Below are positions 2,259 to 10,985 of a DNA stretch of 30,940 nt, one piece after another (within the stretch, counting starts at the first letter, position 1; each line of letters starts with the position of its first letter). Source of the stretch: a virus (taxonomy: Duplodnaviria; Heunggongvirae; Uroviricota; Caudoviricetes). The notes beneath the pieces are model-generated. The model ran no database searches, was not told where the DNA came from, and saw only the letters and a list, made by a program, of their open reading frames with translations. The translations under genes and the position numbers were made by a program. The stretch lies in the IMG/VR virus record IMGVR_UViG_2684622670_000017. One strand, 5' to 3'.

Positions 2259-2433
2259 TTAACTGGAGGCTAATTTCTCCTCGAGCTTTTTTTCCAATAC
2301 TGGATAAATCGAGTCAAAGAGACGTTGAGTGTGCTTATCCAGCGTAACGTTGGGGTTCATGTGAGGTATGGAGGAGCTGATTACCACGCAAGTTTGCTCA
2401 AAGAGAAATTTTACCTTTTCTTCATTATTCATG
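2259..2433 (-). CDS. Hypothetical small protein encoded antisense to the early operon (internal ATG start chosen)
   Basis: ORF 2259..2516 on the minus strand; an internal Met (MNNEEKVKFLFEQ...) is preceded by AAGGGA about 9 nt upstream. Tentative. Confidence 0.25.
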
Positions 2434-2548
2434 ATTTTTTCCCTTGTGTTATTAACTAATTGCATACATGTGGAGTGTAGCGTTTGGAGCATATCACAAG
2501 ACCATGTGCCGGACATGGCTAAAAACCGGCTCTGTTTCAGGAGGAGTT

Positions 2549-2719
2549 ATGCAGGAACCTCGTTGTATTGCTCAGTTATTGCGTAACGAAAGCCCCAGGG
2601 CGATTGACTTCACCATCACCCATGGGAAGGGGCGCAAAGGCATCATTATTCGCACCAAAAAACAGAGTCCGTTAAAGAAGGCTCTGACCTTTCTGAAAAG
2701 CCGGAGGGTATGGAAATGA
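2549..2719 (+). CDS. Hypothetical small basic early protein (P2 orf78-like by position)
   Basis: 56 aa from the internal Met of ORF 2468..2719 (MQEPRCIAQLL...), preceded by a strong GGAGGAG Shine-Dalgarno; overlaps the start of the next gene. Confidence 0.45.
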   Translation: MQEPRCIAQLLRNESPRAIDFTITHGKGRKGIIIRTKKQSPLKKALTFLKSRRVWK

Positions 2720-3216
2720 CAGTGATGACGCTCAATCTCGTTGAAAAACAACCAGCAACTATGCGCCGGATAATTGGTAAGCATCTTGCCGTCCCTCGCT
2801 GGCAGGAGACATGTGATTATTATAATCAGATGATGGAGCGCGAACGGCTAACGGTTTGCTTCCATGCGCAGTTAAAACAGCGTCATGCAACGATGCGTTT
2901 TGAAGAAATGAACGACGTCGAACGTGAACGGCTGGTTTGTGCAATTGATGAATTGCGTGGGGCATTCTCAAAACGCCGTCAGGTCGGTGCAAGTGAGTAT
3001 GCATATATTAGCTTTTTAACTGTCAGTCAGCGCCGTACTTTATTTATGCACGCACGACTGACAGAAAAAGAATTTAACCAGCCATACTGGCGAATTAATG
3101 AAGAGTCATGTTACTGGCGTGATGCTTTATTCCGTGCATTACGTGAATTATTCAGTCTGTTTGAATATGCACCGACAATTCTGACGTCGGTAAAACCAGA
3201 GCAATATCTGCATTAA
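2710..3216 (+). CDS. Early protein at the position of P2 replication gene B (putative helicase-loader-like)
   Basis: 168 aa (P2 B is about 166 aa), correct position between cox and A. Assigned by synteny and size only. Confidence 0.5.
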   Translation: MEMTVMTLNLVEKQPATMRRIIGKHLAVPRWQETCDYYNQMMERERLTVCFHAQLKQRHATMRFEEMNDVERERLVCAIDELRGAFSKRRQVGASEYAYISFLTVSQRRTLFMHARLTEKEFNQPYWRINEESCYWRDALFRALRELFSLFEYAPTILTSVKPEQYLH

Positions 3217-3279
3217 GTAATTAACCAAAGTTTTTAACGCACTTAATCGTGCGGGGCTTCTTTTTGCCTGGAGAAAGTC

Positions 3280-3504
3280 ATGCATACAGTTTCTGAAAAT
3301 CAGTGCGGTAAATACGCATTAATGCTGCAACAGGCCAGAACCGAAGCACAGGCCGACGCGGCGACGCGCTTTTCTTCTCATCTTGACGCCATGATTCGCC
3401 ACATCACAAAGGCGGAGTTATCCCGCGTGGAGATAGTCGAGCTGCTCAGTCAGGAGTCGGAAAAATTTCACAATATCGGATTGTCTCGCGGGGAGGTACT
3501 TTGA
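3280..3504 (+). CDS. Hypothetical early protein (P2 orf80-like by position)
   Basis: 74-aa ORF in the early operon. Confidence 0.55.
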
Positions 3505-3806
3505 TGCCCTGTTCTCGTTCGGTTGTATTACTGAATAACGCCTTAAAAATCGCCGTTATGAAAAATGGTGATTTGTCTCTTATTCAACTTGGTCTTGATA
3601 AAGAGAAGCGCGAAATAACTGAATCTGTTATCGCGATTTATCAGAGTGAATTAAATCTCCTGTCTGATGTGGTCAATTTACTTGTTAAACGCGCTGTATT
3701 TCATAAGCAAATTTCATCCGTGGATGAACTGACAAAATTAACGACAGAAATCGCCAGCTATTGCGCTGATGAATTTAAGAAACTGAACGACAAAAGGAAC
3801 TGGTAA
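3501..3806 (+). CDS. Hypothetical early protein (P2 orf81-like by position)
   Basis: 101-aa ORF; its start overlaps the upstream stop (ATGA), suggesting translational coupling. Confidence 0.55.
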
Positions 3807-4030
3807 TGCCGGACAACGTAGATTTTATTCAGGAACAACAGGCTGAATTACTGGAGCGCCAGATTAACGCGGCAAGGGTAAAACATTGCGGTGTTTCTTC
3901 GCTGGTTTGCGAAGAGTGTGATGCGCCAATACCTGCTGCCCGTCGTGCGGCTTATCCGTCAGCCACGCGTTGTGTTTCCTGTCAGTCAGTCTTTGAAGCA
4001 AAAAACAAACATTACCGGAGAACGGCATGA
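3806..4030 (+). CDS. TraR/DksA-family C4 zinc-finger protein
   Basis: 74 aa with CxxC...CxxC (CEECDAPIPAARRAAYPSATRCVSC), typical of phage TraR/DksA-like zinc fingers; P2 orf82 position. Confidence 0.75.
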   Translation: MPDNVDFIQEQQAELLERQINAARVKHCGVSSLVCEECDAPIPAARRAAYPSATRCVSCQSVFEAKNKHYRRTA

Positions 4031-4302
4031 GTATTCGTATTGAAATTGGCGAACGTTATGTCGTTACCAGTGACAGCTTTCAGTTTATTCTCCACGAGAA
4101 AAAGAGAGCTGAAAGCGGTAAAAACGCCGGTCAGGAATGGCTGGCGGTGGTTGGTTATTACCCGAAATTAAGCCAGCTCGTTTCCGGCCTGATGCATCAC
4201 GATATTCTGACCGGAAGCGCAAAGTCTTTTGCTGATTTAAACGCGCAGGTTGAGCAACTCAGCAAGCGTTGTTCAGAGGCTTTTGGCTCATATGGCCGTT
4301 AA
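4027..4302 (+). CDS. Hypothetical early protein (P2 orf83-like by position)
   Basis: 91-aa ORF immediately upstream of and overlapping gene A. Confidence 0.5.
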   Translation: MSIRIEIGERYVVTSDSFQFILHEKKRAESGKNAGQEWLAVVGYYPKLSQLVSGLMHHDILTGSAKSFADLNAQVEQLSKRCSEAFGSYGR

Positions 4303-6601
4303 AGCCTCCGGGCGTTTTGTCCCTCCGTCAGCATTTGCTGCAGGCACCGGTAAGACGTTTACCGGTGCTTATGCATGGAACGCGCCACGCGAGGCTGTCG
4401 GGCGCGAAAGACCCCTTACACGTGACGAGATGCGTCAGGTGCAAGGTGTTTTATCCACGATTAACCGCCTGCCTTACTTTTTGCGCTCGCTGTTTACTTC
4501 ACGCTATGACTACATCCGGCGCAATAAAAGCCCGGTGCACGGGTTTTATTTCCTCACATCCACTTTTCAGCGTCGTTTATGGCCGCGCATTGAGCGCGTG
4601 AATCAGCGCCATGAAATGAACACCGACGCGTCGTTGCTGTTTCTGACAGAGCGTGACCACTATGCGCGTCTGCCGGGGATGAATGACAAGGAGCTGAAAA
4701 AGTTTGCCGCCCGTATCTCATCGCAGCTTTTCATGATGTATGGGGAACTCTGCGATGCCTGGGTGGATGCGCATGGCGAAAAAGAATCGCTGTTTACGGA
4801 TGAGGCGCAGGCGCATCTGTATGGTCATGTTGCTGGCGCTGCACGTGCTTTCAATATTTCCCCGCTTTACTGGAAAAAATACCGTAAAGGACAGATGACC
4901 ACGAGGCAGGCATATTCTGCCATTGCCCGTCTGTTTAACGATGAGTGGTGGACTCATCAGCTTAAAGGCCAGCGTATGCGCTGGCATGAGGCGTTATTGA
5001 TAGCTGTCGGGGAGGTCAATAAAGACCGTTCTCCTTATGCCAGTAAACATGCCATTCGTGATGTGCGTGCGCGCCGTCAGGCAAATCTGGAGTTTCTTAA
5101 ATCGTGTGACCTTGAAAACAGGGAAACCGGCGAACGCATCGACCTTATCAGTAAGGTGATGGGCAGTATTTCTAATCCTGAAATTCGCCGGATGGAGCTG
5201 ATGAACACCATTGCCGGTATTGAGCGTTACGCCGCCGCAGAGGGTGATGTGGGGATGTTTATCACGCTGACCGCGCCGTCAAAGTATCACCCGACACGTC
5301 AGGTCGGAAAAGGCGAAAGTAAAACCGTCCAGCTTAATCACGGCTGGAATGATGAGGCATTTAATCCGAAGGATGCGCAGCGTTATCTCTGCCGTATCTG
5401 GAGCCTGATGCGCACGGCATTCAAGGATAATGATTTACAGGTCTACGGTTTGCGAGTCGTCGAGCCACACCACGACGGAACGCCGCACTGGCATATGATG
5501 CTTTTTTGTAATCCACGCCAGCGTAACCAGATTATCGAAATCATGCGTCGCTACGCGCTCAAAGAGGATGGCGACGAAAGAGGAGCTGCGCGAAACCGTT
5601 TTCAGGCAAAACACCTTAACCGGGGCGGTGCTGCGGGATATATCGCGAAATACATTTCAAAAAACATCGACGGCTATGCACTGGATGGTCAGCTCGATAA
5701 CGATACCGGCAGGCAGCTGAAAGACACCGCCGCGGCTGTTACCGCATGGGCGTCAACGTGGCGCATCCCGCAATTTAAAACGGTTGGCCTGCCGACAATG
5801 GGGGCTTACCGTGAACTACGCAAATTGCCTCGCGGCGTCAGTATTGCTGATGAGTTTGACGAACGCGTCGAGGCTGCACGCGCTGCCGCAGACAGTGGTG
5901 ATTTTGCGTTGTATATCAGCGCGCAGGGTGGGGCAAATGTTCCGCGCGATTGTCAGACTGTCAGGGTTGCCCGTAGTCCGTCGGATGAAGTTAACGAGTA
6001 CGAGGAAGAAGTCGAGAGAGTGGTCGGCATTTACGCGCCGCATCTCGGCGCGCGTCATATTCATATCACCAGAACGACGGACTGGCGCATTGTTCCGAAA
6101 GTGCCGGTCGTTGAGCCTTTGACTTTAAAAAGCGGCATCGCCGCGCCTCGGAGTCCTGTCAATAACTGTGGAAAGCTCACCAGTGGTGATACTTCGTTAC
6201 CGGCTCCCACACCTTCTGAACACGCCGCAGCAGTGCTTAATCTGGTTGATGACGGTGTTATCGAATGGAATGACCCGGAGGTCGTGAGGGCGCTCAGGGG
6301 CGCATTAAAACACGACCTGATAACACCAAACCGTCAGCAAAGAAACGGAAGCCCGTTAAAACCGCATGAAATAGCACCATCGGCCAGACTGACCAGGTCG
6401 GAACGAATGCAAATTACCCGTATCCGCGTTGACCTTGCTCAGAACGGTATCAGGCCGCAGCGATGGGAGCTTGAGGCGCTGGCGCGTGGCGCGATCGTAA
6501 ATTATGACGGGAAACAATTTACGTATCCGGTTGCTGATGAGTGGCCGGGATTTTTACAAACAGAAATTGTTTTTGGGATTAATAAGTTATCTCTAAGCTA
6601 A
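4292..6601 (+). CDS. A: Rolling-circle replication initiator endonuclease (P2 gpA)
   Basis: Large ORF with HUH-type metal-binding motif (TPHWHMMLF) and paired active-site tyrosines (GYIAKYISKN). Start set at the internal MAVKASGRF Met in frame with ORF 4250..6601; size matches P2 A (about 760 aa). Confidence 0.9.
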   Translation: MAVKASGRFVPPSAFAAGTGKTFTGAYAWNAPREAVGRERPLTRDEMRQVQGVLSTINRLPYFLRSLFTSRYDYIRRNKSPVHGFYFLTSTFQRRLWPRIERVNQRHEMNTDASLLFLTERDHYARLPGMNDKELKKFAARISSQLFMMYGELCDAWVDAHGEKESLFTDEAQAHLYGHVAGAARAFNISPLYWKKYRKGQMTTRQAYSAIARLFNDEWWTHQLKGQRMRWHEALLIAVGEVNKDRSPYASKHAIRDVRARRQANLEFLKSCDLENRETGERIDLISKVMGSISNPEIRRMELMNTIAGIERYAAAEGDVGMFITLTAPSKYHPTRQVGKGESKTVQLNHGWNDEAFNPKDAQRYLCRIWSLMRTAFKDNDLQVYGLRVVEPHHDGTPHWHMMLFCNPRQRNQIIEIMRRYALKEDGDERGAARNRFQAKHLNRGGAAGYIAKYISKNIDGYALDGQLDNDTGRQLKDTAAAVTAWASTWRIPQFKTVGLPTMGAYRELRKLPRGVSIADEFDERVEAARAAADSGDFALYISAQGGANVPRDCQTVRVARSPSDEVNEYEEEVERVVGIYAPHLGARHIHITRTTDWRIVPKVPVVEPLTLKSGIAAPRSPVNNCGKLTSGDTSLPAPTPSEHAAAVLNLVDDGVIEWNDPEVVRALRGALKHDLITPNRQQRNGSPLKPHEIAPSARLTRSERMQITRIRVDLAQNGIRPQRWELEALARGAIVNYDGKQFTYPVADEWPGFLQTEIVFGINKLSLS

Positions 6602-6723
6602 GACGCTCAAAGCAAGAGATTATTTTACTGTACGTAGCCATCTGGAATTGTGGCTGTGTTAAAACGCTCGAGATTTTTTGGATATCCAGTTATACTCCGC
6701 TTAGAAATCATTCGGAGACTAAG
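6602..6723 (+). promoter_or_regulatory. Putative promoter / 5' leader of the methyltransferase gene
   Basis: AT-rich intergenic region with a TATACT -10-like hexamer and an inverted repeat CTCCG..(13 nt)..CGGAG overlapping the GGAG ribosome-binding site before the 6724 ATG. Confidence 0.3.
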
Positions 6724-7770
6724 ATGGCGGTAAAAGTTGTTGATCTTTTTTGCGGTGCTGGCGGTTTAACGCACGGCTTACATTTGGCCGGATTGGACGT
6801 TGTCGCAGGCATTGATTTAGAAGGTGAGTGTCGTGTTGCATACGAAAGCAATAATGATGCACTTTTTATTGAAAAAGATATATCTCTGGTGACAAAAGAT
6901 GAAATCGAAAATCTTTTTGAAGGGGCAAGTGTTAAAGTATTGGCTGGATGTGCACCTTGTCAGCCATTTTCTAAATATACTCAGGGAAAAGATAAAAAAA
7001 ATGATAAAAAGTGGCCGTTATTATATGAGTTTGAACGTTTAATAAAAGACACGAAACCAGAAATAGTTACAATGGAAAACGTTCCTGATGTGACAAAACA
7101 TTCTGTCTATGATGATTTTTATAATACCTTAATAGCATTGGGTTATTATGTTTGGGCAAATAAGATTGAATGTGTAGATTTTGAGGTTCCGCAAAACAGA
7201 GTGAGGCATGTATTACTCGCATCTAAATTTGCGCCGATTTCTCTGATGAAACCACAAACATCGGTAAAGCTGACAGTTAGGGATTGCATTGGTAATTTAC
7301 CTTCGATTGAAGCGGGACAAGCAGATCCAAAAGACCCTCTCCATAAGGCGAGTAGATTGAGTGAAATTAATCTCAAACGTATTCTACATTCAAAACCGGG
7401 GGGGACATGGAGGGATTGGCCTGCTGAATTAATCGCTTCATGTCATGCCAAGAAAAGTGGGCAGGGATATGCCAGTGTTTATGGTCGTATGTCTTGGGAT
7501 AAACCGAGTCCAACGATAACTACACTTTGTTATGGTTTTGGTAATGGACGTTTTGGTCATCCCGAGCAGCATCGTGCAATCTCACTTAGGGAAGCAGCAT
7601 TACTTCAAACGTTTCCTGTTACATATTCATTTACCCAACCGGGCGAGCCGATCAAAATGAAAAATGTCGGGCGTATGATAGGTAATGCTGTTCCTGTAAA
7701 CTTAGGTAAAGCGATTGGTCTTTCAATAGTACATCATTTGAAAGAGTTTCACCCCGCCGCTCTTAAATAA
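6724..7770 (+). CDS. DNA (cytosine-5)-methyltransferase
   Basis: 348 aa with the canonical C5-MTase motifs: I DLFCGAGG (AdoMet binding), IV GCAPCQPFS (catalytic Cys; nt about 6955..6963), VI TMENVPD, VIII QNRVRHVLL, and C-terminal IGNAVPV. AT-rich codon usage unlike the phage backbone. Confidence 0.92.
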   Translation: MAVKVVDLFCGAGGLTHGLHLAGLDVVAGIDLEGECRVAYESNNDALFIEKDISLVTKDEIENLFEGASVKVLAGCAPCQPFSKYTQGKDKKNDKKWPLLYEFERLIKDTKPEIVTMENVPDVTKHSVYDDFYNTLIALGYYVWANKIECVDFEVPQNRVRHVLLASKFAPISLMKPQTSVKLTVRDCIGNLPSIEAGQADPKDPLHKASRLSEINLKRILHSKPGGTWRDWPAELIASCHAKKSGQGYASVYGRMSWDKPSPTITTLCYGFGNGRFGHPEQHRAISLREAALLQTFPVTYSFTQPGEPIKMKNVGRMIGNAVPVNLGKAIGLSIVHHLKEFHPAALK

Positions 7771-8468
7771 GCCTGAGTATCAAGATAAGTTTGTATATTT
7801 TCAAGGATGCAGTTGAGATAATGAAAAACTTCATCCTTCATTTCTGTTAGTGTATCAATAGATGTATCTCTGCCTTTGTTTCTAAATGATTCAGAACCAT
7901 GAGCAAGGTCGTTTCTGGCCTTTTTTATTGGAAGTAAATTGCAACCATTTCGCGTTATTTCTGAATCTGTATCTGCTGAGAAGCCATATTTTTCAGCGAC
8001 TTCTCTAATTTTTCTAGCATCAACATTTCCAGAAAATAACGGATTTTTATTTGATTGGATAAGTTTTTTGTGAGCGTTTAGCCACTCTTTAAATATAACT
8101 TTTGCAATGTTCCCTTGTGAGAAATCTATTTTCCCATTTGGTGATTGTAAACTATGAAATGCTACTCTTGTAAGGTTTTCATTTACAGTGTCTGCACATA
8201 ATGATTCATTAGACATTAAAACATTATGAATGTCTTCTATTGCATTGGAAATGGTTGCTTCAATGAGATTGTACAATATAATAAATGCATTAGCCTTTAA
8301 AATATGAGTCATATCAATATCAATGGGTTGTTGTATAGGCGCATCGCTTGTATTATCTTTATAGACTAGAGATGGTTTTTTGTTTATTAGTAACTGAATG
8401 AATGAGAAGTATTCATTAATATCTTGCATTCTTTCTTGGAAAAGAATTTTACTTGTCATCTCCTCCAT
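7749..8468 (-). CDS. HEPN-like protein with Rx4HG motif (putative nuclease effector; resembles the MAE_28990/Swt1-like HEPN group)
   Basis: 239 aa. Conserved-looking ARNDLAHGSESF near the C-terminus (R185..H190, nt about 7899..7917) fits the HEPN Rx4-6H signature. Second gene of a minus-strand operon, 10 nt after the DUF262 gene; AT-rich. Confidence 0.6.
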   Translation of the reverse strand: MEEMTSKILFQERMQDINEYFSFIQLLINKKPSLVYKDNTSDAPIQQPIDIDMTHILKANAFIILYNLIEATISNAIEDIHNVLMSNESLCADTVNENLTRVAFHSLQSPNGKIDFSQGNIAKVIFKEWLNAHKKLIQSNKNPLFSGNVDARKIREVAEKYGFSADTDSEITRNGCNLLPIKKARNDLAHGSESFRNKGRDTSIDTLTEMKDEVFHYLNCILENIQTYLDTQAYLRAAG

Positions 8469-8478
8469 TTACTTGGCC

Positions 8479-9624
8479 TCACTCCATATTTTCATCTTCA
8501 TCTTCATCTTCGTCGACAATATTTTCTGGAATGTCTTTCCCAAGCAACTTGTTTTTTACATATTCAATGCGTGCTTTAACTTTGGGTTTAGAGTTGCTGG
8601 CATCTGAACGTGTGTGCGTGATAAACTCTTTCGAGTTGATCCAGTCATCAATATTTTTAGGAACTAAATTGGGTTCTTCCTCCAGTGCTAATGTTGCACC
8701 GACGGCAAGAGCTTCGAAACGAATCCTAGGAACAGTGGTGGCGTTTTTCACCTTTCTGAAACCATTTGGGAAATGTGTATTAATGAATTGGCACATTTTA
8801 TGAAATTTTTCCGCCAGCATAGCTGCGTTTTCATCTGTATATTCGGCATTTTTACGTTTTAAATAGGTTGTAAGAAATTCATCAACGCTTTTTCTGAAAT
8901 CAAGATATTCTTCAGTGTAGGCAAAGTAGCGTAGTGCCAATTCTGGATATTCAGAGCGACGTTTTCTTGCATCTCCCAAAGGACAGATGCTATGAAATAG
9001 AGGATCTTCGGAAATTTCATTGATAAATGCAAGGAATGGCCCATCATGGCTACCTTGCCGTTGTTCCATTGTTGTTAGTTTTTTTCCGCCAGTATTCAGA
9101 CGGTCAAAAATTTCCCTTCTTGTCTCTTCGTCACAATGTTCTGTAAGTTCAATCATTCGAATAGTTTTTCTATCAAAACGTAGGCGACGGGGAGTACTGA
9201 AATCAGAATATTTAAAACCATTGGCTGTGACTAATTTCTGCAGGCCTTCAAGAGTTAGTTTGTTATTGGTAAATTGGTGTAGGGTTCTTATTCGTTGGCT
9301 ACCGTCAACAATTTCAAGTCTACCTTCATTTTCACCTGAACCAATATCGGCAACGAATATGTAAGGTATAGGAAGATTTAAAAGCAGAGATTCAATGAAA
9401 CGGGATTTTTGCTTGTTGTTCCAGATAAACTCCCTTTGGTAGTCAGGTATAAAAAGCTCTGCCTCATCTTCTTCAAGACCATTCTGAAATTTGTCCACAA
9501 TAACACTTATCGGGAACTCACGTATTTCATGGTCAGTGATTTTTTGCATTTCAACTATGCTTTGATCTAAAAGCTCCTTTTCTTCTTTAGTTTTTGGGGT
9601 ATGTTCTGCTTTTTTTCTCGCCAT
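8479..9624 (-). CDS. DUF262 (ParB/Srx-like, GmrS-type) domain protein
   Basis: 381 aa. N-terminal DUF262 signatures FIPDYQREFIW and EIVDGSQRIRTL (DGQQR-type). No HNH/DUF1524 His-Me motif seen in the C-terminal half. Ends in an acidic tail DEDEDEDENME. Confidence 0.8.
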   Translation of the reverse strand: MARKKAEHTPKTKEEKELLDQSIVEMQKITDHEIREFPISVIVDKFQNGLEEDEAELFIPDYQREFIWNNKQKSRFIESLLLNLPIPYIFVADIGSGENEGRLEIVDGSQRIRTLHQFTNNKLTLEGLQKLVTANGFKYSDFSTPRRLRFDRKTIRMIELTEHCDEETRREIFDRLNTGGKKLTTMEQRQGSHDGPFLAFINEISEDPLFHSICPLGDARKRRSEYPELALRYFAYTEEYLDFRKSVDEFLTTYLKRKNAEYTDENAAMLAEKFHKMCQFINTHFPNGFRKVKNATTVPRIRFEALAVGATLALEEEPNLVPKNIDDWINSKEFITHTRSDASNSKPKVKARIEYVKNKLLGKDIPENIVDEDEDEDENME

Positions 9625-9763
9625 GAGCTTATTATCCTACTATGCGTGTGATTGCATTAAATTGCATGTTAAACAAAAGCATAATCTATATCAGTCAATC
9701 AGCCAGTGGCAAGGTGTTGTGATTACAATGCAACTGCATTAGAACCGACTCATGAAGCGGGCG

Positions 9764-9782: not shown

Positions 9783-9950
9783 TGCGCGCTGGCGGTGGTG
9801 CTGATTTTATTTTTTCAGCGTCTGAGCGCGTCGTGATGGCGTTTAGATTGTTCGCCGGGGCGTTGGTGTGTCTGCGGGATGTTTTGTGCGGTGGTGAGCG
9901 TGTGAGGGCGTGATGGCGGGTTGTAAAAAGCCGCCCGTAGGCGGCGATGT

Positions 9951-10985
9951 TCAGCCGTTGTCAGTGTCCAGTGAGTAGTTTTTAAAGCGGATGACCTCCT
10001 GACCGAGCCAGCCGTTTATCTCGCGGATCCTGTCCTGTAGCGGGATAAGCTCATTGCGGACAAAGACCTTTGCCACTTTCTCAATATCACCCAGCGACCC
10101 GACGTTCTCCGGCTTGCCGCCCATCAACTGAAAGGGGATGCGGTGCGCGTCCAGCAGGTCAGCGGCGCTGGCTTTTTTGATATTAAAAAAATCGTCCTTC
10201 GTTGCCACTTCACTGAGCGGGATAATTTTAATGCCGTCGGCTTTCCCCTGTGGGGCATAGAGAAACAGGTTTTTAAAGTTGTTGCGGCCTTTCGACTTGA
10301 CCATGTTTTCGCGGAGCATTTCGATATCGTTGCGATCCTGCACGGCATCAGTGACGTACATGATGTATCCGGCATGTGCGCCATTTTCGTAATACTTGCG
10401 GCGGAACAGCGTGGCCGACTCATTCAGCCAGGCAGAGTTAAGGGCGCTGAGATATTCCGGCAGGCCGTACAGCTCCTGATTAATATCCGGCTCCAGCAGG
10501 TGAAACACGGAGCCGGGCGCGAAGGCTGTCGGCTCGTTGAAGGACGGCACCCACCAGTAAACATCCTCCTCCACGCCACGACGGGTATATTTGGCCGGTG
10601 AGGTTTCCAGTCTGATGACCTTACCGGTGGTGCTGTAACGCTTTTCCAGAAACGCATTACCGAACACCAGAAAATCCAGCACAAAGCGGCTGAAATCCTG
10701 CTGGGAAAGCCACGGGTGCGGGATAAACGTTGAAGCCAGAATATTACGTTTGACGTAAATCGGTGAGCTGTGATGCACGGCAGCACGCAGACTTTTTGCC
10801 AGACCGGTAAAGCTGACCGGTGGCTCATACCATCTGCCGTTACTGATGCACTCGACGTAATCCAGAATGTCACGGCGGTCGAGTACCGGCACCGGCTCAC
10901 CAAAGGTGAATGCCTCCATTTTCGGGGCGCTGGCGGTCATTTTTTTTGCCGCAGGTTGCGGTGTTTTCCCTTTTTTCTTGCTCAT
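9951..10985 (-). CDS. Q: Portal protein (P2 gpQ)
   Basis: 344 aa (same as P2 Q), adjacent to cos and the large terminase, minus strand as in P2. Confidence 0.92.
   Translation of the reverse strand: MSKKKGKTPQPAAKKMTASAPKMEAFTFGEPVPVLDRRDILDYVECISNGRWYEPPVSFTGLAKSLRAAVHHSSPIYVKRNILASTFIPHPWLSQQDFSRFVLDFLVFGNAFLEKRYSTTGKVIRLETSPAKYTRRGVEEDVYWWVPSFNEPTAFAPGSVFHLLEPDINQELYGLPEYLSALNSAWLNESATLFRRKYYENGAHAGYIMYVTDAVQDRNDIEMLRENMVKSKGRNNFKNLFLYAPQGKADGIKIIPLSEVATKDDFFNIKKASAADLLDAHRIPFQLMGGKPENVGSLGDIEKVAKVFVRNELIPLQDRIREINGWLGQEVIRFKNYSLDTDNG

What the first reader, a model, noticed from the sequence alone, without database searches (positions are those of the whole stretch)
7749..8468. HEPN-like Rx4HG protein as the predicted effector
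The motif K-A-R-N-D-L-A-H-G (R185, H190) sits in the C-terminal third of a 239-aa protein and fits the catalytic Rx4-6H signature of HEPN RNases. The gene follows the DUF262 gene by only 10 nt, suggesting translational coupling and a fixed stoichiometry. If it is a HEPN RNase, its activity would have to be held in check in the lysogen, perhaps by the DUF262 partner, and triggered on infection.
Basis: partly seen in the sequence, partly recalled or inferred. Interest (0 to 1): 0.7.

Follow-up and report, generated by a model that had tools for sequence, protein, structure and literature searches.

The report
Prophage HEPN nuclease paired with DUF262
The gene encodes a predicted HEPN-type RNA-cutting enzyme, paired with a DNA-sensing DUF262 protein and a cytosine methylase in the defence hotspot of a P2-like prophage; both the protein family and this gene arrangement are already described, so it is an ordinary new member of a known kind.

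Summary
Window 7749-8468 (minus strand) is a 239-aa ORF with K-A-R-N-D-L-A-H-G at residues 183-191 (R185, H190), 10 nt after a DUF262 gene.

The motif alone is not evidence, because 49% of shuffles contain an Rx4-6H. The rest is strong:
- Pfam PF18737 (MAE_28990 HEPN), E 6.5e-18.
- R185, N186, H190 and G191 are invariant in 46 homologs down to 39% identity.

The gene lies in the gpA-portal defence hotspot of a P2-like prophage. A DUF262 gene sits immediately upstream in 78 of 79 related loci, mostly overlapping. An orthologous Dcm methylase is adjacent in 28 of 52 complete loci and was lost repeatedly.

RefSeq already names the protein. The HEPN-ParB-methylase triad was described in 2013, and a DUF262+HEPN pair (PD-T4-2) is a validated anti-T4 system.

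[quoted passage not shown] This is inferred, not shown. Verdict: new member of a known kind, modest interest. The role of the Dcm is the one open question.

The parts
7749..8468 (-). HEPN-family gene (239 aa from M1, or 236 aa from M4 as annotated in RefSeq), Pfam PF18737 MAE_28990/MAE_18760-like HEPN
7896..7922 (-). Codons for K183-A-R185-N-D-L-A-H190-G191, the Rx4H catalytic signature
   Evidence: Position computed. R185, N186, L188, H190 and G191 are invariant and A189 is at least 90% conserved in 46 homologs.
8469..8478 (-). 10-nt spacer between the DUF262 stop codon and the HEPN ATG. It holds the last two bases of a GAGG Shine-Dalgarno-like element (8477-8480) that begins in the DUF262 stop codon and ends 8 nt upstream of the ATG
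   Evidence: Sequence. Homologous loci mostly overlap by 4 nt or 1 nt at this junction.
8479..9624 (-). NsnA-like ParB/DUF262 protein (381 aa), the predicted DNA sensor and NTPase partner. It has no DUF1524/HNH domain
   Evidence: Pfam GmrSD_N E 4.7e-28 over residues 52-190. PADLOC NsnA E 4.9e-55 over residues 31-358 and PD-T4-2_A E 9.2e-35. Y62-Q63-R64, D107-G108-x-Q110-R111 and F173/R175/N177 are invariant in 25 orthologs. Weak profile match to solved DUF262 proteins and SspE.
6724..7770 (+). C-5 cytosine DNA methyltransferase (348 aa), convergent with the HEPN gene, with the two 3' ends overlapping by 22 nt. A frequent third member of the module
   Evidence: Pfam DNA_methylase E 1.8e-54 and TIGR00675. 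Orthologs at 49-89% identity are adjacent in 28 of 52 full-length loci across several phyla, and a 59%-identical copy is adjacent in Moraxella prophages.
9683..9712 (-). Sigma-70-like promoter match upstream of the DUF262 start. Weak, consensus-level evidence only
   Evidence: 9 of 12 matches. The number of sites in the region is not above the shuffled expectation.
9930..9945 (-). GC-rich hairpin followed by a T-run directly after the portal gene. A terminator-like site that would separate the late operon from the DUF262-HEPN operon
   Evidence: six G-C pairs, a 4-nt loop and a TTTTT tail.
4250..6601 (+). P2 gpA-type replication endonuclease, the left border of the hotspot
   Evidence: ORF. 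RefSeq annotation of near-identical DNA.
9951..10985 (-). P2 portal protein (gpQ-type), the right border of the hotspot
   Evidence: ORF. RefSeq annotation.

Best explanation
The 239-aa protein is a HEPN-superfamily nuclease of the MAE_28990 family. It is the effector of a two-gene anti-phage module, DUF262 then HEPN, carried as cargo in the gpA-portal hotspot of a P2-like prophage, with an orthologous Dcm methylase as a frequent third gene.

Proposed mechanism, all of it inferred:
1. The operon is transcribed in the lysogen from its own promoter, and the two proteins are made by coupled translation.
2. The NsnA-like ParB/DUF262 protein (NTP-binding DGxQR motif plus a C-terminal DNA-binding domain) surveys DNA and responds to incoming phage DNA or its modification state.
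3. That signal releases or assembles the HEPN dimer. Its R185/H190 site then cleaves RNA, either tRNA or mRNA.
4. RNA cleavage stops translation and phage development, probably at the cost of the infected cell.

Where the Dcm is present, it most likely writes an m5C mark on resident DNA that tunes what the DUF262 sensor treats as self.

What is shown here: family membership, the fold, the conserved catalytic motif, the operon linkage and the prophage-hotspot context. RNase activity, the trigger, the regulatory direction and the Dcm role are inferred.
For: HEPN identity.
- Pfam PF18737, E 6.5e-18.
- R185, N186, H190 and G191 invariant.

Effector by elimination.
- The partner has a DUF262/GmrSD_N domain but no DUF1524/HNH domain.
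- It aligns end to end with NsnA, the proposed sensor of Menshen (PMC12065111).
- The invariant residues in its C-terminal half are mostly hydrophobic or basic, with no His or acidic cluster.

Obligate pairing.
- DUF262 is immediately upstream on the same strand in 78 of 79 loci from genome species representatives. The single exception is cut by a contig end.
- Junctions are mostly -4 or -1 nt.

Defence context.
- The module lies between gpA and the portal gene of a P2-like prophage. That is the hotspot holding old, tin and many other defence systems (PMC9519451 and PMC9122126).
- Island GC is 37% against 52% for the window.
- The same triad sits next to the CI-like repressor in Moraxella prophages.
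- A DUF262 plus RiboL-PSP-HEPN pair is found in a Klebsiella Peduoviridae phage.

Validated precedent.
- PD-T4-2 is DUF262 plus a roughly 165-aa HEPN protein (HHpred PF18735 97.8%, PF18737 96.9%). It protects against T4 both when cloned and in its native strain ECOR65.
- Characterised defence HEPN proteins are RNases, often tRNA anticodon nucleases (DARNA preprint).

The pair can work without the Dcm.
- The Dcm is absent from 24 of 52 full-length loci, and those checked are flanked by housekeeping genes.
- Dcm-less clades are nested among Dcm-bearing ones.
Against: - There are no biochemical or phenotypic data for this subfamily.
- PADLOC's PD-T4-2_B and NsnC models do not hit the HEPN protein even at E up to 1, so the link to the validated system rests on architecture and Pfam family, not on close homology.
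- A co-inherited, orthologous Dcm in all deep branches of the family is not explained by a pure sensor-effector model.
- ParB-fold proteins were classed as nucleases in the 2013 analysis, and the DUF262 protein weakly hits a PADLOC 'Type II REase' model (E 8.7e-07), so the partner may also cut DNA.
- The geometry of R185 and H190 in a dimer was not examined.
Confidence: 0.55

Rival explanations
1. Restriction-modification with a HEPN fail-safe, the PrrC/EcoPrrI-type model of Anantharaman et al. 2013. Dcm plus the ParB/DUF262 protein form an R-M pair in which DUF262 cuts or nicks unmethylated DNA. The HEPN RNase is held inactive by the DUF262 subunit and is released only when a phage neutralises restriction.
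For: [quoted passage not shown]
- The Dcm is orthologous (49-89% identity) and its divergence tracks that of HEPN and DUF262 (r 0.91-0.97).
- The Dcm is present in every deep branch of the HEPN tree.
- The DUF262 protein gives a weak hit to a PADLOC REase_II model.
Against: - The Dcm is missing from 24 of 52 full-length loci and was lost several times independently while both other genes stayed intact. Loss of the methylase should be lethal in a classical R-M system.
- Phage P24B2 carries the island with a frameshifted Dcm, although this could be a sequencing error.
- PD-T4-2 works as a two-gene clone without a methylase.
- No recognised DNase domain (DUF1524/HNH or PD-(D/E)xK) is present.
Confidence: 0.2
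2. Toxin-antitoxin or addiction module. HEPN is a constitutively active toxin, and the DUF262 protein is its antitoxin, stabilising the prophage rather than sensing phages.
For: - HEPN toxins paired with a neutralising partner are common: HepT-MNT, and the ParA/Soj pairing proposed for the MAE_18760 family.
- Strict co-occurrence and translational coupling would suit a fixed toxin:antitoxin ratio.
Against: - In a Microcoleus clade the DUF262 protein has lost its whole C-terminal half and the aspartate of DGxQR, yet HEPN stays intact under purifying selection (dN/dS 0.19).
- The gene order, with the larger 'antitoxin' first and an NTPase/DNA-binding architecture shared with the sensors NsnA, SspE and GmrSD, points to a sensor.
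- The closest validated relative was selected for phage defence.
Confidence: 0.08
3. The DUF262 protein is the real effector, a ParB-type DNase or nickase acting on modified phage DNA like a split GmrSD. The HEPN protein is then a non-catalytic adaptor or regulator.
For: - DUF262 proteins in GmrSD, BrxU and SspE act on DNA.
- PD-T4-2 was isolated against T4, which carries glucosyl-hmC DNA.
Against: - In GmrSD, BrxU and SspE the cutting is done by DUF1524, which is absent here.
- Absolute conservation of R185, N186, H190 and G191 over 46 sequences down to 39% identity indicates a catalytic HEPN. Inactive HEPN domains usually lose these residues.
Confidence: 0.05

Closest known systems
MAE_28990 family HEPN (Pfam PF18737), described by Anantharaman, Makarova, Burroughs, Koonin and Aravind 2013 (PMC3710099)
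   Same: - The whole protein matches the family model above its gathering score.
- The Rx4-6H motif is conserved.
[quoted passage not shown]
   Different: Nothing substantive; this protein is a member. The family has no experimentally characterised representative that I could find (literature searches).
PD-T4-2 (Vassallo et al. 2022, E. coli ECOR65)
   Same: - A two-gene operon with DUF262 first and HEPN second.
- The DUF262 protein matches the PD-T4-2_A model over nearly its full length (E 9.2e-35).
- PD-T4-2B matches the same two Pfam HEPN families by HHpred.
- Both come from E. coli and are likely mobile-element cargo.
   Different: - The HEPN protein here is 239 aa, against roughly 165 aa.
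- It is not detected by PADLOC's PD-T4-2_B model at E up to 1.
- The best Pfam family here is PF18737 rather than PF18735.
- PD-T4-2 has no methylase, whereas this module carries a Dcm.
- The DUF262 protein scores higher with the NsnA model than with PD-T4-2_A.
Menshen (NsnABC; Millman 2022; Zheng et al. 2025, PMC12065111)
   Same: The DUF262 protein is NsnA-like over its full length (E 4.9e-55), that is a ParB-DUF262 domain plus a C-terminal DNA-binding domain. The proposed logic is also shared: a DNA sensor feeding an RNase effector.
   Different: There is no NsnB ABC ATPase transducer and no inPIN-type NsnC effector. Here the HEPN gene follows DUF262 directly.
GmrSD / BrxU / SspE (DUF262-DUF1524 Type IV and PT-dependent enzymes)
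   Same: An N-terminal DUF262 domain with the QR and DGxQR motifs. SspE is a precedent for a DUF262 sensor working alongside a linked DNA-modification system.
   Different: There is no DUF1524 HNH nuclease. The nuclease is a separate HEPN protein, so the expected target is RNA rather than DNA.
PrrC-EcoPrrI and other HEPN genes embedded in R-M loci
   Same: A HEPN nuclease genetically linked to a DNA methylase and a DNA-acting partner, with an abortive RNase as the proposed second line of defence.
   Different: There is no ABC ATPase domain on the HEPN protein and no Type I hsdMSR genes. The methylase is dispensable in about half of the family.

Membership tests
HEPN superfamily, MAE_28990/MAE_18760 family (PF18737) | Match to the family profile above the curated threshold | tested here: met
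   66.1 bits against a cut-off of 26.8, E 6.5e-18, residues 10-234 on profile positions 9-211 of 211. All 120 listed homologs carry PF18737, apart from one 155-aa fragment with no Pfam entry.
HEPN superfamily, MAE_28990/MAE_18760 family (PF18737) | Conserved Rx4-6H motif with a polar residue after the arginine | tested here: met
   R185-N-D-L-A-H190-G. R185, N186, H190 and G191 are invariant in 46 sequences.
HEPN superfamily, MAE_28990/MAE_18760 family (PF18737) | All-alpha HEPN fold | tested here: met
HEPN superfamily, MAE_28990/MAE_18760 family (PF18737) | Dimer with a composite active site, and metal-independent RNase activity | not testable with these tools
   No multimer prediction or coordinate access was available, and no biochemistry.
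PD-T4-2 | PD-T4-2_A (DUF262) component | tested here: met
   PADLOC PDLC04027, E 9.2e-35, residues 59-356 on profile positions 55-357 of 363. The NsnA model scores higher.
PD-T4-2 | PD-T4-2_B (HEPN) component recognised by the system's model | tested here: not met
   No PADLOC family hits the 239-aa protein at E up to 1. The relation holds only at Pfam-family level.
PD-T4-2 | Anti-phage activity | not testable with these tools
   Needs plaque assays.
Menshen (NsnABC) | NsnA followed by an NsnB ABC ATPase and an NsnC effector | tested here: not met
   An NsnA-like protein is present. The only genes between gpA and the portal gene are Dcm, HEPN and DUF262, so there is no ATPase and no NsnC hit.
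GmrSD-type Type IV restriction enzyme | DUF262 joined to, or paired with, a DUF1524 HNH nuclease | tested here: not met
   Only GmrSD_N is found in the 381-aa protein at E up to 1. The downstream gene is HEPN.
Classical Type II R-M system | Methylase obligatorily linked to a cognate endonuclease | tested here: not met
   The Dcm is adjacent in 28 of 52 full-length loci and absent in 24, with repeated losses. The DUF262 protein hits a REase_II model only weakly (E 8.7e-07).
HEPN-MNT (HepT/MntA) toxin-antitoxin | Adjacent minimal nucleotidyltransferase antitoxin | tested here: not met
   The neighbours are DUF262 and Dcm. There is no nucleotidyltransferase gene.

The most novel reading that the evidence does not exclude
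The Dcm-DUF262-HEPN triad is an R-M-like self/non-self system with an RNA output. The Dcm writes an m5C mark that the ParB/DUF262 NTPase reads, as SspE reads phosphorothioate. Unmarked or differently modified incoming DNA then switches on a HEPN RNase instead of a DNase. The Dcm-less and N-domain-only variants would be derived forms that have been rewired to another cue.
Probability: 0.2. Interest if true: 0.65.

Novelty: new member of a known kind. Interest (0 to 1): 0.3.

Why it matters
It adds one more defence cargo to the P2 gpA-portal hotspot. PADLOC's models recognise only the DUF262 and Dcm components here, not the HEPN component, so this sub-type of the DUF262+HEPN architecture may be under-counted in surveys.

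The module is small, about 3 kb, and sits in a tractable E. coli phage that has been isolated (Peduovirus P24B2). That makes it a convenient model for two open questions:
- How does a ParB/DUF262 sensor control a separate HEPN nuclease?
- What does the co-inherited cytosine methylase contribute?

Neither question is new, and the HEPN assignment itself is already in RefSeq and Pfam.

Tried and rejected
- Sequence search of the HEPN profile against all PDB chains gave nothing meaningful. The best hit was a ferredoxin-thioredoxin reductase at E 0.67.
- NCBIfam and PADLOC gave no hit for the HEPN protein.
- The large ~890-aa genes upstream of several Dcm-less loci might have been a missing system component. 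They are ClpB and aconitase B, which are housekeeping genes.
- The ~190-aa DUF262 ORFs in Microcoleus might have been pseudogene fragments. They are a clean N-terminal-domain-only form under purifying selection.
- The G7 tract in the Dcm might have been a conserved phase-variation switch. It is confined to this allele, and other orthologs use non-repetitive codons for the same KPGGTW peptide.
- The Rousset 2022 and 2026 P2/P4 hotspot papers do not mention a DUF262, HEPN+methylase or PD-T4-2 system.
- Promoter scans are at chance level.
Full report
**1. Observation**

The ORF at window 7749-8468 lies on the minus strand and encodes 239 aa from an ATG. It is the only R.{4,6}H match in the protein.

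The DUF262 ORF (8479-9624, minus strand) ends 10 nt before this ATG, and a GAGG sits 8 nt upstream of it. RefSeq/PGAP instead starts the protein at the second ATG (M4, 236 aa), which would give a 19-nt gap.

The 3' end of the HEPN gene overlaps the 3' end of a convergent C-5 cytosine methyltransferase gene (6724-7770, plus strand) by 22 nt.

The bare motif is not evidence. In 20,000 shuffles of the protein, 49% contain an Rx4-6H, 20% an Rx4H and 1.9% an RNx3H.

**2. What the protein is**

Sequence evidence:
- Pfam assigns residues 10-234 to PF18737 (MAE_28990/MAE_18760-like HEPN) at E 6.5e-18, 66 bits against a cut-off of 26.8.
- The sister family PF18735 (RiboL-PSP HEPN) scores just above its threshold.
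- NCBIfam and PADLOC give no hit.
- PHROGs places it in phrog_3846, function unknown.
- A database search found 547 homologs, and PF18737 is on record for all of the 120 listed except one 155-aa fragment.
- In an alignment of 46 homologs down to 39% identity, R185, N186, L188, H190 and G191 are invariant. So are N67 and E70 in the long helix YNLIEAT, and F145, N148, D150 and A151 in a LFSGNVDA motif.

Structural evidence:
- AlphaFold2 with that alignment gave a confident all-alpha model (pLDDT 91.7, pTM 0.87).
- Foldseek also ranked a HepT toxin first, but only at E 0.08.
- A profile search of PDB sequences found nothing.

The juxtaposition of R and H in a dimer could not be examined, because model coordinates were not exposed.

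**3. Surroundings**

The window is a P2-like prophage. The three-gene island lies between the gpA replication endonuclease (4250-6601) and the portal gene (9951-10985). This is hotspot #1 of P2-like phages, which holds old, tin and many other defence systems (PMC9519451; PMC9122126).

Other features of the island:
- Its GC content is 37%, against 52% for the window.
- A terminator-like hairpin follows the portal gene, and a weak promoter-like site precedes the DUF262 gene. Promoter matches in the region are at chance level.

The partner protein (381 aa):
- It has a GmrSD_N/DUF262 domain (E 4.7e-28) and no DUF1524 domain.
- It aligns over nearly its full length with PADLOC's NsnA model (E 4.9e-55) and PD-T4-2_A model (E 9.2e-35).
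- The YQR, DGxQR and FxRxN motifs are invariant in 25 orthologs.
- The conserved residues in its C-terminal half are mainly hydrophobic or basic.

**4. Distribution**

In E. coli and its phages:
- The island is near-identical (99.3-99.7%) in three of 5,426 complete E. coli genomes.
- A ~76-78% identical allele occupies the same P2 position in four more.
- It is also present in the isolated phage Peduovirus P24B2.

Across species representatives:
- A scan of 185,579 species genomes found 321 stretches encoding relatives, and 79 loci were fetched.
- A DUF262 gene lies immediately upstream on the same strand in 78 of the 79. The exception is cut by a contig end.
- In 52 loci with a full-length DUF262 gene, the junction is -4 nt (21 loci), -1 (11), 0 to 10 (19) or 41 (1). 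This supports coupled translation across the family.

The Dcm:
- A Dcm gene is adjacent in 28 of those 52 loci. It is usually convergent and 3 nt from the HEPN stop, and sometimes upstream and co-directional.
- These Dcm proteins are orthologs (49-89% identical to the window's), and their divergence tracks that of HEPN and DUF262 (r 0.91-0.97).
- On a neighbour-joining tree of HEPN, the Dcm is present in every deep branch (Enterobacterales, Thalassotalea, Cytophagales, Runella, Parabeggiatoa, Pyrinomonadaceae). Dcm-less clades are nested within Dcm-bearing cyanobacterial clades, which implies several independent losses.
- The Dcm-less loci that were checked are flanked by housekeeping genes such as ClpB, aconitase B, GlyS and TerC.

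Other phages:
- The same triad lies next to a CI-type repressor in nine Moraxella catarrhalis prophages, with Dcm 59%, DUF262 45% and HEPN 29% identical.
- A Klebsiella Peduoviridae phage carries an NsnA-like DUF262 gene followed by a RiboL-PSP HEPN gene, without a methylase, at another position.

**5. Mechanism**

Shown here:
- HEPN family membership, the fold and the invariant catalytic signature.
- Obligate, translationally coupled pairing with a ParB/DUF262 protein that lacks its usual HNH nuclease.
- Location in a prophage defence hotspot.
- Facultative but orthologous linkage to a Dcm.

[quoted passage not shown] This rests on three lines of published work:
- DUF262 domains act as NTP-dependent DNA or modification sensors in GmrSD, BrxU and SspE, and NsnA is proposed to be the Menshen sensor.
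- Characterised defence HEPN proteins are RNases, commonly tRNA anticodon nucleases.
- PD-T4-2, a DUF262 plus HEPN operon from E. coli ECOR65, protects against T4 both when cloned and in its native strain.

I give this sensor-effector reading 0.55.

Rival readings:
- Anantharaman's PrrC-like R-M plus fail-safe model. It explains the co-inherited Dcm, but it is weakened by repeated Dcm loss and by the absence of any recognised DNase domain. Probability 0.2.
- A plain toxin-antitoxin reading (0.08). It is disfavoured by the Microcoleus clade. There the DUF262 protein is reduced to its N-terminal 177 aa, with DGxQR changed to YGAQR in the example examined, and the Dcm is absent. Yet HEPN (dN/dS 0.19) and the short DUF262 (0.31) remain under purifying selection.
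- A non-catalytic HEPN (0.05). It is disfavoured by the invariant motif.

**6. Comparison with known systems, and novelty**

RefSeq already names the protein 'MAE_28990/MAE_18760 family HEPN-like nuclease'. [quoted passage not shown]

The system fails the definitions of several named systems:
- It is not Menshen, because there is no NsnB or NsnC.
- It is not GmrSD, because there is no DUF1524.
- It is not HepT-MNT, because there is no nucleotidyltransferase.
- It fails the PADLOC definition of PD-T4-2, because the B component is not recognised. It does share that system's architecture and Pfam families.

I found no experimental study of this subfamily or of the role of its Dcm. It is a new member of a known kind.

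The open question worth an experiment is whether the Dcm mark feeds into the DUF262 sensor. That would make the module an R-M-like discriminator with an RNA-cleaving output (probability about 0.2).

**7. Verdict**

It is untested for activity and regulation.
- Novelty is low and interest is 0.3.

Noticed in passing
window 7398-7404 (within the Dcm gene, 6724-7770 +): A G7 homopolymer encodes part of the KPGGTW peptide. Phage P24B2 has G8 at this position, which frameshifts its Dcm to 235 aa while DUF262 and HEPN stay intact. The tract is specific to this allele, since other orthologs use non-repetitive codons. It is therefore either a sequencing error, a recent inactivating mutation, or an incidental slippage-prone site.
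   Followed up: yes
L007, L017, L022, L026-L028, L031-L037, L042, L051, L078 (Microcoleus spp.), about 6330-6865 and 6980-7672 in each locus: In this clade the DUF262 protein is only the N-terminal ParB domain (177 aa). DGxQR reads YGAQR in the one sequence examined. A gap of about 110 nt precedes the HEPN gene, and there is no Dcm. Both genes are still under purifying selection, with dN/dS 0.31 for DUF262 and 0.19 for HEPN.
   Followed up: partly
window 8482-8532 (-), the C-terminal 17 residues of the DUF262 protein: The protein ends in an acidic tail, DIPENIVDEDEDEDENME. Similar tails occur in the enterobacterial and Moraxella orthologs but not in the cyanobacterial ones. It could be an auto-inhibitory DNA-mimic tail or an interaction tail. 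This was not tested.
   Followed up: partly
L084 (Moraxella phage Mcat32) 3728-7407, and eight related Mcat prophages: The same DUF262-HEPN-Dcm triad sits directly downstream of a CI/LexA-like repressor gene in Moraxella catarrhalis prophages. All three genes are annotated only as hypothetical proteins.
   Followed up: yes
L085 (Klebsiella phage ST16-OXA48phi5.4, Peduoviridae) 2426-4329: An NsnA-like DUF262 gene is followed by a 220-aa RiboL-PSP HEPN gene, with no methylase. The pair lies between tail-fibre and tail genes, which is a different cargo site in a P2-family phage. In L086, a DUF262 gene next to an integrase is followed by a 216-aa protein with no Pfam hit.
   Followed up: partly
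window 7749-7770: The convergent Dcm and HEPN genes overlap by 22 nt at their 3' ends. In most other loci the two stop codons are 3 nt apart. No terminator lies between them, so the transcripts would be partly antisense to each other.
   Followed up: no
window 8457-8468: The start codon is ambiguous. ATG-GAG-GAG-ATG gives M1 (239 aa, with GAGG 8 nt upstream) or M4 (236 aa, the RefSeq choice, with GGAGGAG immediately upstream). Orthologs at 82-86% identity are mostly annotated at 239 aa.
   Followed up: partly
L008 and L016, HEPN region about 6980-7669: In these two Microcoleus loci the uninterrupted HEPN reading frame starts only at about 7175-7220. This suggests a disrupted HEPN gene in some members of the short-DUF262 clade.
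   Followed up: no
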